In this document: positions 30,628 to 36,819 of the stretch, piece after piece
Position numbering within the stretch: the stretch's first letter is position 1
How the letters are laid out: every line of letters starts with the position of its first letter
Assembly (NCBI GenBank): GCA_030141605.1
Contig: JAQGDQ010000636.1
Span: 58,002-122,001 of the forward strand
Reading direction: 5' to 3'
Length of the DNA: 64,000 bases
Origin: Tubiluchus corallicola
Taxonomy: Eukaryota > Animalia > Priapulida
Translations under genes and position numbers: made by a program
Notes under the pieces: model-generated
The model's input: only the letters and a program-made list of their open reading frames with translations
What the model was told of the DNA's origin: nothing
Database searches by the model: none

Positions 30628-30882
30628 CTAGACATCTATGATTTGCAGACTTGATGTTACATGGGCATTAAAACTTTGATTTCCAAATACATAATCTGAA
30701 TAAAACTGCTCTATGTCAATCCATATGGCATAGTGGGCAAGTCTAACTCCCAAAATCACCATAGATTTGTCATATCCTTCAAATTTTTGCTCTCTGTATG
30801 CTGAATCTTTAACATTTGCTTGTTGAATGCCAACTACTTCCCTTGTTGGTGTGTTTAGTACATATGGCCCACCAGATTCACC
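30628..30882 (-). CDS. Trypsin-fold protease, alternative terminal exon 7B (Ser form, GESGGP)
   Basis: Starts tatagcag|ggt. GESGGPYVLNTPTREVVGIQQANVKDSAYREQKFEGYDKSMVILGVRLAHYAIWIDIEQFYSDYVFGNQSFNAHVTSSLQIIDV then stop. Paralogous to exon 7A (EVVGI, WIDIEQ). Confidence 0.8.
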   Translation of the reverse strand, partial: GESGGPYVLNTPTREVVGIQQANVKDSAYREQKFEGYDKSMVILGVRLAHYAIWIDIEQFYSDYVFGNQSFNAHVTSSLQIIDV

Positions 30883-31597
30883 CTGCTATAAGAAAATACA
30901 ACATAATGATTGCAGTGAACAAGAAACACCTAAAATACAACATAATGATTGTAGTGAACAAGAAACATGTAAATGATAATCTACAGTAAAGTGTAAAGTT
31001 TCATATTTGATATCGTTTGTAATACTTTCACTAGTTTTGCATTTAATTATTTGTATTTGATGTTGCTTGTATTGGTAGTTTGTTTTTAACACTATTGCAC
31101 ACAGCAGTTTTTGTAACTGATTATACAAAATTGTATATGTGTATGTGTTATAATAAGGAGAACTTGCTTTTTTAATTTAAATAAAAAAGTTAATTGAAAT
31201 TTTGAAGAAAATTTCAAAAACTAGTACAACGTATTACTAATATTGTTAAGGTTTTCTCTCCTTTGCATTGATGCCAAGGTGCTTTGTGGGTTAAATTACA
31301 ATTTGCTTTAACTAGATACGACCTTTGACCCTTCGGCTAAAGTTATTACTGACCCCATGGCTATCGAGGAGCGGATTATGTCCACACATATTAAAGCCGC
31401 CCCCCCAAAAAAAATTAAGATCATTTTGATTCATAATTATTACGATTTCCAAAATCTTTGGCTGATCACACTTTTACAGCATCAGTATCAAAAACATCAT
31501 CGAATTGTCAGTTATCATTATTAAAAATCAAACATCATTTTTATCGCACAATATCAATAAGTCCATTTAAAAATGACTCCTCTCATTATAAATAAAG

Positions 31598-31735
31598 TTG
31601 TTGTTGCTGTTGTTGCTGCTGTTTTTATTTGTTGTTGTTGTTGTTCTTGTTGTTGTTGTTGCAGCTGCTGCTGTTGTTATTTGTTGTTGTTGTTGTTTTT
31701 GTTGTTGTTATTGCTGTTGCTGTTGTTGTTGTTGT
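31598..31735. repeat. (GTT/GCT)n microsatellite
   Basis: Direct reading. Confidence 0.85.
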
Positions 31736-32156
31736 GGAATTGATGTTAGGGTGTCGTTGTTATTGTCATCATTTTATTATTTTACTATTCGATTACTTAA
31801 TTAATTAATAATTAGTTATTAATTAATTATTTATTAATTATTATATATTAATTAATTAATAGCAGGCAGTACGGTAAATAATTTAATTATGGGGAGGCTA
31901 TCAGAAAAAAATGAGAAGAGAGTGTCACCTACGTCACATTTATAATTTTTCATAAATTTCTCCAGTTTTTTTGTTATTTGAGAAATCAGATTTTACATGT
32001 TTGTAAATTTTAATCAACCTGCTTGCAATTTTTCCACATTTTAGGAAATGTTTGTACATGTCACATATCTCCTTGCGAATATATTGTCGTCATTTCACAA
32101 TCAATATAAATTTTTTAAATAAAATCTTGTTATTTCTGTAATTACTAATTACTTAC

Positions 32157-32284
32157 AAAGCCAGAGAAGACTCCAGGATGGTGCGCACAGATGTAAATTC
32201 TTGACCTAAACATCTCACAACGACCTCCATCAGTGACTGTGAAGGTCGCCTTTTGCAGGTTAAAATATGGTTCATGGGGTGTGT
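32157..32284 (-). CDS. Trypsin-fold protease, alternative exon 6B
   Basis: Bounded by tttcag|ac and ttt|gtaagt; 128 nt, same length and phases as exon 6A. (D)TPHEPYFNLQKATFTVTDGGRCEMFRSRIYICAHHPGVFSGF. Confidence 0.8.
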
Positions 32285-32812
32285 CTGAAATATGAAGCTG
32301 GTGAGTGAAGTATATCCCACTTCTGACACCATGTTTTATGTTGATGTACCTGGATTTCTATCTAGTAGAAATAACGAAATACAGTATGCCATTATGCGTG
32401 TTACCGAACTACTATTTTACATTGCGTTCTGACGCATTAATAGATAACAGTGAGAAAGTTGCCACTCACGGTGAAGGATAATGGCCGATATTGATACAAT
32501 TTGTCACTTCATGGTTTTCTGAAATTTACATTTCCTTGCAGCTAATCTTGTTCAAGTCAGTGAGCTTAAAGGAAAAGCTAACTCTTCTAGGAGACTAGTC
32601 TTATTTCAATGTTCATGAAAGGATTTAAAAATTAAACTGCAATAAACTAAATTGAAAAAAAAGCTGCAAACAGTCAGTCATTCGTTAAATGTATAATAAG
32701 TTTTTACAGAAAAATTAGCGAGCTAATTTCGAAATATGTTTGCATGGATATTAAGTAAGCTGCAGAAATTTGAAATAGTTCAAGAAGCTCGCTTGCGAAA
32801 AGTCAAAAAGTC

Positions 32813-34296: not shown

Positions 34297-34829
34297 CAAG
34301 ATATACACTATAAGTCTCCAAGTCACGTCATAATGTTCAAGTGAATGTTCAAGTGAATGGTAACAACAGTCTCACCTGAAAATTTCTATTCAGAGAGAGT
34401 ATGTTTTAAATTGATGCTTTATTAGCAGTTCTTTGCAAATTTCGTTGTTATATTCTTCTACGTTCAAGCGATAACAGTAAAATAAACCCAACATTACGAA
34501 TGACTTGTTCTTTCCTTTAATACGATGCTATGTAATTGATGATACATTGCTCTGTAAACTGCAGCGTATGATACTGATACATATGATACATTGTTCTCTA
34601 AACTGTAGCATTATACAAAAAGCACAAACAGTAAACATTTAACAAGGAGAATATTTCGAAATACATAACAATAAGAATTTATTTTATTTAAATTTTATTA
34701 AAAATACGTTGTGCACAATTTTAGCCAATCAAAGATATAATTTGCTTTTAGAAAGTGATACTCAAAGCAGAAGTGATGAGACAATTTTTTCTTAAAAATT
34801 ATAAAACAGTACCTAAAAGTTCTTTTTTA

Positions 34830-35144
34830 TTATTTACTTTGATTTTTAATAATCATTAAAAAACTCGTAGACAATATTGTAATTATAGAGATCGCTGTTG
34901 TGTCATGTCCTAGAGCTCCTTCAGATGTTACAGGGGCGACAAAACCTTCGTCTCCATACTCATACCTTGAAAAAGCCTGCTCAATATCAATCCATGCTAA
35001 ATAATAGCTAATTCTTGGTCCTATTATTATTGAATTTTCATCAAGATGTGGCTGATCGTCCGGTCCTTGACCTGAACTGCCTTGAAAAATGCCAACAACT
35101 TCCAGAGTTAGTGGGTTTAATAAAAGCGGTCCACCACAATCACC
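34830..35144 (-). CDS. Trypsin-fold protease, terminal exon 7A (Cys form, GDCGGP) with hydrophobic C-tail
   Basis: Starts ttctgtag|ggt gat tgt ggt gga ccg. GDCGGPLLLNPLTLEVVGIFQG...IIGPRISYYLAWIDIEQ...EGALGHDTTAISIITILSTSFLMIIKNQSK then stop. Confidence 0.85.
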   Translation of the reverse strand, partial: GDCGGPLLLNPLTLEVVGIFQGSSGQGPDDQPHLDENSIIIGPRISYYLAWIDIEQAFSRYEYGDEGFVAPVTSEGALGHDTTAISIITILSTSFLMIIKNQSK

Positions 35145-36284
35145 CTACAGAAAGAATATAAATAAATAAATATATATATATATAATAAATTTATATATAA
35201 GCATATATATATATGCATATATTTATGCATGCAGATACTACGCACTTATACTCATGTATGCACACACTCACAGCTTCATATGAGTCTGCATGCATGTGAT
35301 TTATGTGTGTGCGTGCATGCGTGTGTGTGTGCGTGTGTGCGTAAATTTGTGTGTGTGATATTTATAGTAATAAATCTTCATACATATTAATACATTCAAA
35401 ACTTCCATGTCATAATTACAGGTGTATTTTTTAAAAAAGGATTAGAAAGATCTAAATGTCGTTTATTTATTAAAAAGATGCAGCTTTACATATTGTGTGC
35501 GGTTATCAATTGATATGGCAATTATGCCAATCATTTGTTATAAACATGTCCCCAATTTCTTCACATTAGAGAAACTTACCCGTTCAGTGTTACACCTAAT
35601 TTCACACGTATTTTTAGTGAAATTTTACTTTTTTAATACAAAGCGAGTTTATTGGTAGTTTGTATTATACCTTATTGTTTTCAGATGTTTATTTGGGGTT
35701 TGTTTGCTGTTTTTAAAAAAATTAATGAGTCTTGTTATGCTGAAGGTGTTGAGTAGTAGCAAAGGCACAAAAAATTTTGCACATCAACGCATTAATAATC
35801 AATAAGACGCGAACATCCTACACAGTGTTCATTTATAAATATTTATCTAACGCAAACCCTGAAGCAGCTTTTGCTGAAGCAAAGTTAAAGCCTGAATACA
35901 AGAGAATGATGCTAGAACCATGCAAACGTGTAGCTTGTAAGCGAAAATCGCCCAAAATGGAACCTCCGATTAACTCGTTACCACTCCTCTTGGTGAAAGT
36001 GCGCAAACATGTGACCGACATTGTCGTGTAGCCCTGTTAATCGTCTTTCCTAAGAACTAAACATATCCCAGTGTCCCACCATGTGCTGCTATAACTTTCT
36101 TCTTACATGCTGTTTGGTTAATATTTTTGGTATGTCTTTCCCTCAACAAACTAATTTCGCTTTACCCACAAATAATGTAAATTGCCCAACGAGATTAAAT
36201 TTAGTGAACTAAGATTTGTCATTTTGCTGAATTTTACCCGTTCATGTAGTTTATAAGAATAAGTCTACTATTGCTATTACTTAC

Positions 36285-36412
36285 CCAGCCACCAATACGT
36301 CCTGGGTGGTGTGCACAGATGAAAAGCCTTTGGTCATAGTCTTTGCAATCACCCCGATCAGTAACTACGAAGTAACCCTTCTGCAACCGATCTTTTTGTT
36401 CTTTTGGTCTGT
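36285..36412 (-). CDS. Trypsin-fold protease, exon 6A
   Basis: Bounded by ttttag|ac and tgg|gtaagt; 128 nt. (D)RPKEQKDRLQKGYFVVTDRGDCKDYDQRLFICAHHPGRIGGW; retains the Cys168/Cys182 equivalents. Confidence 0.85.
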
Positions 36413-36635
36413 CTAAAATATTCGCATTGGTGTCAACTACATTTCCTTACTGCTAATGTAGTTCAATTCAATCGGCCTAATAGAGTACGACTAATAAAAG
36501 CAGCAAATGTGAAGACAAAACAGCTCTCTGTGAATCATAACACCTGGAGGATGACAAACGCTGCAGTGCTGAAATTACTTTTCACAATTAATTGCAAGTC
36601 TTTAAATAGTCAAAATATAAAAAAACATTGCATAC

Positions 36636-36819
36636 CACTCCATATATCTGATCCCCATCCTACAAGAGTAATTACTCGGTTCATGTAACTAATTCTGTCA
36701 GATATAGGTAGTTTTGCAGGTCGAATATATTCGCTGAACTCAACAAGTTGGTTTAATCGCAGAAAAGCAATATCATTGTTAGGCTCATCATATCCTTCAT
36801 GAATTTTGTAAAAGTGAAC
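36636..36819 (-). CDS. Trypsin-fold protease, exon 5 (catalytic Asp102)
   Basis: Bounded by ttgcag|gtt and g|gtatgc; 184 nt. VHFYKIHEGYDEPNNDIAFLRLNQLVEFSEYIRPAKLP...TLVGWGSDIWS (NDIA.L.L and GWG motifs). Confidence 0.9.

What the first reader, a model, noticed from the sequence alone, without database searches (positions are those of the whole stretch)
30628..36819. Duplicated 3' exon pair could let splicing switch the nucleophile between Cys and Ser
Seen: exons 6B (32284-32157) and 7B (30882-30628) are diverged paralogs of 6A and 7A. Exons 6A and 6B are both 128 nt, begin with the same phase-1 'ac' and end in phase 0, with canonical splice sites and no internal stops. The conserved core is LQK..F.VTD.G.C.......ICAHHPG and EVVGI...WIDIEQ. 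I found no second copy of exons 1-5 between 32284 and 34830. Exon 5 could therefore splice to either pair, giving a 337-aa GDCGGP isoform or a 317-aa GESGGP isoform that share the His/Asp half. Inference: alternative 3' cassettes would swap the nucleophile and the S1-pocket residues (RIGGW versus VFSGF) in one gene. High amino-acid divergence without stops suggests selection on both cassettes.
Basis: partly seen in the sequence, partly recalled or inferred. Interest (0 to 1): 0.82.

Follow-up and report, generated by a model that had tools for sequence, protein, structure and literature searches.

The report
Orphan protease exons beside Cys195 trypsin
An animal trypsin-like gene has cysteine where the catalytic serine normally sits and is followed by a spare, intact copy of its last two exons that carries serine; that copy is most likely the leftover half of a neighbouring sister gene, but it could be spliced in to switch the active site, which no RNA data yet show.

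Summary
The anatomy is real. A 7-exon, minus-strand, highly divergent trypsin-fold (S1) gene gives a 337-aa ORF with His/Asp motifs and GDCGGP. It is followed 2.5 kb later by paralogous exons 6B/7B (GESGGP) with matching phases and GT-AG sites and no exons 1-5 of their own. B was under selection for most of its history: neutral decay would keep the ORF and splice sites with P≤0.006. No RNA junction could be tested. New facts weaken the splice-switch reading. A third family member upstream (exon 1C, broken exon 7C) lost its middle exons, so this array sheds exons. B's family-conserved hydrophobic tail is frameshifted, and B evolved faster than A. Repeats fill the gap, and DNA contigs show further paralogs. 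Cys195 is one base from Ser, probably derived, and unconfirmed by independent reads; engineered thiol-trypsin is inactive. Best reading (0.48): B is the orphaned 3' half of a sister gene. Main rival (0.35): a live alternative 3' cassette, more likely switching a dead, anchored form for an active, soluble one than switching two working nucleophiles. RNA-seq junction 36636→32284 decides.

The parts
40798..40933 (-). Exon 1 (first coding exon): ATG, hydrophobic signal-like leader, 45 codons + 1 nt. An AG acceptor lies just upstream, so a 5' UTR exon may precede it.
39924..39988 (-). Exon 2: propeptide end, predicted activation site R|LHGG, and EGEFPFM
   Evidence: the activation site is inferred from the recalled S1 motif
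38076..38185 (-). Exon 3: His57 motif LTVAHM; no C42/C58 pair
   Evidence: Pfam Trypsin E 0.0036, below cut-off; aligns weakly to C1r
37626..37701 (-). Exon 4
   Evidence: GT-AG, in frame
36636..36819 (-). Exon 5: Asp102 motif NDIA and VGWG; the last exon both forms would share
   Evidence: Pfam Trypsin E 7.8e-9; 18 PDB S1 protease hits
36438..36480 (-). 43-nt block of intron 5, upstream of the 6A acceptor
   Evidence: 34 of 43 nt identical to 32569-32527
36285..36412 (-). Exon 6A (128 nt; ...GDC...ICAHHPGRIGGW)
34830..35144 (-). Exon 7A: GDCGGP (Cys at the Ser195 position, codon TGT), hydrophobic C-terminal tail, AATAAA at 34831
32570..34829 (.). Gap between A and B, mostly high-copy repeats; no exon 1-5 homology
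   Evidence: summed contig depth 112-2315 in bins spanning 32244-34861, against about 5-33 in exon-containing bins
32527..32569 (-). Homologue of the intron-5 block; the furthest upstream point to which the duplication can be traced
   Evidence: blastn E 7.5e-5 within the window
32157..32284 (-). Exon 6B (128 nt; ...GRC...ICAHHPGVFSGF)
30628..30882 (-). Exon 7B to its stop: GESGGP (Ser195, Glu194); NAGNAG acceptor; net frameshift against A after VTS
30563..30625 (-). Out-of-frame remainder of the family tail (HDT + hydrophobic stretch) behind B's stop; AATAAA at 30452
   Evidence: 34 of 58 nt identical to A's tail, stop-free in the shifted frame
52150..52285 (-). Exon 1C: intact paralog of exon 1 with the same length and donor
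   Evidence: 92 of 136 nt and 20 of 45 aa identical
50984..51283 (-). Exon 7C: disrupted third paralog of exon 7 (EDSGGP, Ser; HDST + hydrophobic tail), with an in-frame stop and a replaced middle; no exons 3-6 between it and exon 1C

Best explanation
Exons 6B and 7B are intact, same-phase paralogs of the last two exons of a divergent trypsin-fold gene, and are most likely the orphaned 3' half of a once-complete sister gene in a tandem array that gains and loses pieces. Shown: the exon anatomy, B's past purifying selection, the missing exons 1-5, the repeat-filled junction, the frameshifted B tail, and a neighbouring paralog (C) without its middle exons. Inferred: B was a separate Ser195 protease that recently lost its 5' half, by deletion or by a partial copy from a B-type gene. 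Gene A normally ends at the poly(A) signals after 7A and makes a probably membrane-anchored protein. Its Cys195 is a derived change that likely leaves it weak or inactive (a serine-protease homolog). Any 5-to-6B or 6A-to-7B splicing would be low-level read-through.
For: Local precedent: exon 1C is intact and exon 7C is broken, with exons 3-6 absent between them. The HD[T/S]+hydrophobic tail is in frame in A and C but out of frame in B. It is still 59% identical to A and stop-free, so the lesion is recent or an assembly error. Against outgroup C, B has 22 private nucleotide changes and A has 9 over 153 nt (p=0.029). The gap is mostly high-copy repeats. DNA run X1 holds diverged paralog contigs on exon 3, exon 6 and exon 7A, so the family is multi-copy. 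A has AATAAA at its stop and a 223-nt intron 5, whereas 5-to-6B needs a 4351-nt intron that skips a terminal exon. PMC3228551 (passages) says that groups of several homologous exons most probably represent tandem gene duplicates or trans-spliced genes.
Against: B has no stop or frameshift in the protease-coding part and keeps 3 of 3 splice sites. Neutral decay at d=0.25-0.38 keeps all of this with P 0.0006-0.006, so the loss must be very recent. The only lesion lies in the dispensable tail. No exon-5 remnant is seen, and one decayed to d≤0.5 would have been detected (12 of 12 simulations at each of d=0.3 and 0.5). Homology stops in intron 5, as a partial duplication predicts. The intron-5 block is better conserved (34 of 43) than synonymous sites (pS 0.48), which could mark a kept splicing element. 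The relative-rate test uses hand-chosen blocks and a pseudogene outgroup.
Confidence: 0.48

Rival explanations
1. 6B-7B is a live alternative 3' cassette. After an old partial duplication breaking in intron 5, exon 5 splices to 6A-7A or, skipping A's poly(A) site, to 6B-7B; the hybrid 5-6A-7B is also in frame. The switch replaces most of the C-terminal barrel, the residue at 195, the specificity loops and the tail. The likely effect is an anchored, weak or inactive Cys form versus a soluble Ser form.
For: Equal length and phase, and canonical splice sites of strength similar to the other exons. 6A and 6B together shift the frame, which enforces exclusivity. B has been under long-term selection. 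Core motifs are conserved and the loops variable. Homology ends in intron 5. B has its own AATAAA. Analogues exist: MASP1/MASP3 (PMC10855846) and insect serpin C-terminal exons (PMC10513286).
Against: No RNA junction is available. dN/dS is not significantly below 1. Paralog C shows exon loss in this array, and the B tail is frameshifted.
Confidence: 0.35
2. B is a separate, working gene whose exons 1-5 are missing from this assembly (collapse or mis-join in the repeat-filled gap) or lie outside the window.
For: The gap is repeat-rich, the family is multi-copy, and B looks selected.
Against: Long satellites in the window appear resolved. The intron-5 block lies only about 240 nt from 6B, and no exon-5 trace lies upstream of it.
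Confidence: 0.12
3. Cys195 in A is an assembly error or private allele (TGT for TCT), so no Cys/Ser contrast exists in the species, whatever B is. This is independent of the rivals above.
For: One base separates the codons. The other two family exon-7 copies in the window have Ser.
Against: A's ORF is otherwise clean over 337 codons. A single wrong base at exactly this site is unlikely a priori.
Confidence: 0.1

Closest known systems
Peptidase family S1A (chymotrypsin/trypsin; Pfam PF00089) and its serine-protease homologs
   Same: His and Asp motifs, G-x-[SC]-GGP, predicted activation site, signal-like leader. Exon 5 matches PPAF-I, enteropeptidase, hepsin and prostasin structures.
   Different: Cys195 in A and Glu194 in B. 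No SWG at 214-216 (Q-G-S and Q-A-N by counting). Only two other cysteines in the mature chain. No close relative was found in any protein collection searched.
Human MASP1 gene (MASP-1 / MASP-3 / MAp44)
   Same: One gene with alternative 3' parts that give different serine protease domains (PMC10855846 passages).
   Different: There the whole protease domain is swapped and both forms are serine enzymes. Here the switch would fall inside the domain, between Asp102 and the nucleophile, and it is not shown.
Insect serpin-1 alternative C-terminal exons (Manduca, Pteromalus)
   Same: Duplicated 3' exons that swap the specificity determinant (PMC10513286 passages).
   Different: Those are inhibitors with single short exons proven by transcripts. 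This is a two-exon module in a protease.
Mutually exclusive homologous exons that change catalytic residues (9 events in PMC7954323, e.g. fly CG42249)
   Same: Precedent that exon switching can change catalytic residues (passages).
   Different: The word 'protease' occurs 0 times in that paper's main text. Those events are mutually exclusive exons; this one would be a terminal two-exon group.
Viral 3C/3C-like chymotrypsin-fold cysteine proteases, and engineered thiol-trypsin S195C
   Same: Cys at the Ser195 position of a trypsin fold (PMC6642262 passages).
   Different: This is an intron-containing animal gene with an S1A zymogen layout. A bare Ser-to-Cys change inactivates trypsin, and no compensating features were shown here.

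Membership tests
Peptidase S1A | Trypsin-domain sequence homology | tested here: met
   Exon 5 Pfam PF00089 E 7.8e-9 and exon 3 E 0.0036. Exons 6A, 6B, 7A and 7B alone give no Pfam hit (4 of 6 pieces). 7A aligns weakly to factor XII at GDSGGP (E 0.34); its atlas top hit is Trypsin at 0.83, a lead only.
Peptidase S1A | His57 and Asp102 motifs | tested here: met
   LTVAHM and NDIA, in shared exons
Peptidase S1A | Ser195 in GDSGGP: form A | tested here: not met
   GDCGGP
Peptidase S1A | Ser195 in GDSGGP: form B | tested here: inconclusive
   Ser is present, but Asp194 is Glu (GESGGP)
Peptidase S1A | Conserved disulfides and the S214-W215-G216 strand | tested here: not met
   Only two cysteines besides C195, inferred to be 168/182. 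SWG is absent. Numbering is by counting from recalled motifs.
Peptidase S1A | Two-barrel fold and proteolytic activity | not testable with these tools
   The spliced protein is not a contiguous stretch and was not folded; no assay
Alternative homologous 3' terminal exon cassette | Homologous exons, same length and phase, canonical splice sites, own poly(A) signal | tested here: met
Alternative homologous 3' terminal exon cassette | No separate 5' exons for the second copy | tested here: met
   (within this assembly window only)
Alternative homologous 3' terminal exon cassette | Transcripts joining the shared exon to each copy | not testable with these tools
   No run on record as RNA holds the locus
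Alternative homologous 3' terminal exon cassette | Current purifying selection or conserved layout in relatives | tested here: inconclusive
   Past selection shown; dN/dS 0.68, interval 0.37-1.12; no relatives available
Viral 3C-like cysteine proteases (clan PA, Cys type) | Viral polyprotein protease with a catalytically used Cys | tested here: not met
   The gene is an intron-containing cellular gene with a leader and zymogen motif. Catalytic use of the Cys is untested.

The most novel reading that the evidence does not exclude
One animal gene uses alternative 3' exon pairs to build two or three active trypsin-fold enzymes on a shared His/Asp half: a membrane-anchored natural cysteine protease (GDCGGP) and a soluble serine protease (GESGGP) with different specificity loops. 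That would be a splice-controlled change of catalytic class and a natural cellular thiol-trypsin.
Probability: 0.07. Interest if true: 0.92.

Novelty: new variant of a known kind. Interest (0 to 1): 0.5.

Why it matters
If the cassette is used, splicing would rebuild half of a protease active site inside one domain. That goes beyond MASP1/3 (whole-domain swap) and serpin exons (inhibitor loop). If the Cys form also works, it would be a natural solution to the long-known failure of Ser-to-Cys trypsin and a direct test of how the viral Cys and cellular Ser branches of the fold interconvert. If B is an orphan, the locus is an ordinary decaying protease array. Even then it holds an unusual lineage-specific S1 family (almost no disulfides, no SWG, hydrophobic tail) with one Cys195 member worth an assay.

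Tried and rejected
No whole genome is held. RNA evidence: no RNA holder was listed. X2, a guessed RNA run, laid only 2 short repeat pieces and 0 on 7A; this blank is not evidence either way. X1 contigs do not cover B's tail bin (30374-30747), do not bridge A to B, and do not report position 35137. The one contig over that position differs at 8 of 68 letters, only 1 difference was listed, and the site lies near the contig end.

Homolog searches found no relatives. The search for homologous proteins with 7A, exon 5 and the canonical exon scored 0 of 71, 0 of 2 and 0 of 9 candidates (weak, short queries). The 50% library gave 1 repetitive 16-residue hit. The metagenome scan gave 1 of 164 stretches, a 28-residue 48% match that was not followed. 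PDB searches with 7B and with profiles A5 and A6 gave nothing relevant. The taxon is not resolved beyond animal (zinc-finger atlas hits are Arthropoda and Chordata). Four look-ups of earlier findings were empty.

An apparent colinear match to exon 5 and the start of intron 5 upstream of the block was rejected: z 1.0 or lower, 1.1 at best. The first relative-rate run had C out of register and was discarded; one search replaces it. The window's other exon-1 alignments at z 2.4-2.9 were treated as chance among 18 comparisons. Skipping exon 6 altogether gives a stop at codon 62. No structure or complex was predicted.

Literature searches with 0 hits: GDCGGP + trypsin; serine protease homolog + catalytic serine + replaced by cysteine; Manduca serpin-1 exon 9. 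Listings (titles and abstract starts only) showed no intra-domain protease cassette and no animal Cys195 trypsin. The library lacks most subscription papers, and no supplements were read.
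Full report
OBSERVATION. The window is AT-rich animal DNA with introns, C2H2 zinc-finger genes, an ankyrin gene and satellites; the taxon was not resolved. On the minus strand lies a seven-exon trypsin-fold gene: 40933-40798, 39988-39924, 38185-38076, 37701-37626, 36819-36636, 36412-36285 and 35144-34830, all introns GT-AG. 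It gives a 337-aa ORF. Exon 5 matches Pfam Trypsin (E 7.8e-9) and 18 PDB S1 proteases; exon 3 carries the His motif. Downstream, 6B (32284-32157) and 7B (30882-30628) are paralogs of 6A and 7A, with 53 of 116 aligned residues identical, the same exon-6 length and the same phases. Exons 1-5 plus B give 317 aa. The hybrid 5-6A-7B is also open, while 6A plus 6B shifts the frame. No exons 1-5 were found between A and B by tblastn, shuffled DNA alignment or Pfam.

SELECTION ON B. Over 116 codons dN is 0.52, dS 0.76 and the ratio 0.68 (bootstrap 0.37-1.12), which alone does not exclude neutrality. ORF retention does. In 20,000 simulations per setting, neutral decay at 0.25-0.38 substitutions per site gives 3.6-5.1 stops on average and keeps the ORF plus three splice sites with P 0.0006-0.006. 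At 0.15 the figure is about 0.03; indels were not modelled. Intron 6A and 6B are unalignable (z 0.2). So B was coding and selected for most of the time since the duplication. That fits a long-used cassette, and equally a whole gene that lost its 5' half recently.

(1) A third family member lies upstream. Exon 1C (52285-52150) is intact, 92 of 136 nt identical to exon 1, with the same donor. About 870 nt on, exon 7C (51283-50984) reads EDSGGP, has an in-frame stop and a replaced middle, and keeps the HD[S/T]+hydrophobic tail. Exons 3-6 are absent, so genes in this array lose exons. (2) B has 11 extra nt against A after VTS and stops early. The family tail continues in another frame, 34 of 58 nt identical to A and stop-free. 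The lesion is therefore recent or an assembly error, and it would turn a probably anchored protein (tail hydropathy 2.4 in A) into a soluble one (0.6). (3) With C as outgroup, B has 22 private changes against 9 for A over 153 nt (p 0.029; hand-picked blocks, pseudogene outgroup). (4) A 43-nt block of intron 5 has a homologue 243 nt upstream of 6B (34 of 43 identical; E 7.5e-5). Nothing further upstream is homologous. A decayed exon 5 would have been seen at d up to 0.5 but missed half the time at 0.76. (5) The gap is mostly high-copy repeats. DNA run X1 holds diverged paralog contigs on exon 3 (24 differences in 138), on exon 6 (one contig part 6A-like, part 6B-like) and on 7A (8 of 125, 4 of 97, 8 of 68). 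The family is multi-copy, though contig depth is no copy number.

THE CYSTEINE. Two of the three family exon-7 copies in the window have Ser, and A's TGT is one base from B's TCT, so Cys195 is probably derived in A (inference). Independent reads did not report the site. Neither form is canonical. B has Glu194, both lack SWG, and the mature chain has only two other cysteines (numbering by counting from recalled motifs). Loss of the His-loop disulfide alone is not disabling, since the C1r segment aligned also lacks it. PMC6642262 (passages) states that thiol-trypsin and thiol-subtilisin are inactive toward common substrates. It also states that viral cysteine proteases are trypsin homologues and that extra mutations can rescue a Cys hydrolase. 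A is therefore more likely a weak or dead homolog than a working cysteine protease, though this is untested. The 7B acceptor is NAGNAG.

MECHANISM AND ODDS. Best (0.48): B is the orphaned 3' half of a sister Ser protease gene, and A ends at its own poly(A) signals. Rival (0.35): a live alternative 3' cassette, most likely toggling an anchored Cys (weak) form and a soluble Ser form. Rival (0.12): B's 5' exons are missing from the assembly. A separate 0.1 chance applies that the Cys is an error or private allele. Shown: anatomy, past selection, neighbours, tail frame. Inferred: history, anchoring, activity. Untested: any splicing. No run on record as RNA holds the locus, which says nothing about expression.

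COMPARISON. The locus would work like MASP1/MASP3 (PMC10855846, passages) or insect serpin-1 terminal exons (PMC10513286, passages). Exon switches of catalytic residues are known in 9 events (PMC7954323, passages). PMC3228551 (passages) warns that multi-exon homologous groups mostly reflect tandem duplicates or trans-splicing. My ten library searches showed no intra-domain protease cassette and no animal GDCGGP trypsin. Most were seen only as listings, and the library is incomplete. No close protein relatives were found (weak searches with single exons).

VERDICT. The structure is real and cheap to test. The headline claim of a Cys/Ser nucleophile switch needs two unproven steps, splicing and Cys catalysis, and is put at about 0.07. 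Interest 0.5; new variant of a known kind.

Noticed in passing
window 55981-56133 (-): Last exon of a canonical trypsin-like gene (NDSGGP...YPGVYTRV; Pfam Trypsin E 4.6e-9). Its upstream exons were not located; a short candidate lies near 59070-59030.
   Followed up: partly
window 52050-51950 (-): Possible partial exon 2 of paralog C (DQSCGTP...DLSFR, propeptide-like), ending in a stop just before a 59-bp satellite.
   Followed up: partly
window 46289-48844 (-): Single 851-codon ORF with ankyrin-like repeats and a SOCS-box-like end (recognised by eye, not scanned), sitting between paralog C and gene A.
   Followed up: no
window 43516-44013 and 51509-51949: Two copies (79-93% identical) of an element with a 59-bp tandem unit flank the ankyrin gene.
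   Followed up: no
window 9638-11110, 16829-17680, 26383-27567 (+): Three long C2H2 zinc-finger ORFs.
   Followed up: no
window 8475-9575 (-): Fragment resembling the C-terminal part of a LINE reverse transcriptase, fused to a tandem repeat (by eye).
   Followed up: no
window 25650-25750 (-): Short stretch resembling reverse-complement 5S rRNA or a 5S-derived SINE (recalled resemblance, not tested).
   Followed up: no
window 30930-30975 (-): A roughly 45-nt tandem duplication of the 7B acceptor region creates a second, out-of-frame AG about 47 nt upstream.
   Followed up: no
window 57183-59000 and 61700-64000: Long, fully resolved satellites (30-bp unit; about 11-bp unit), and a TAC/TAT microsatellite at 44010-44500.
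   Followed up: no
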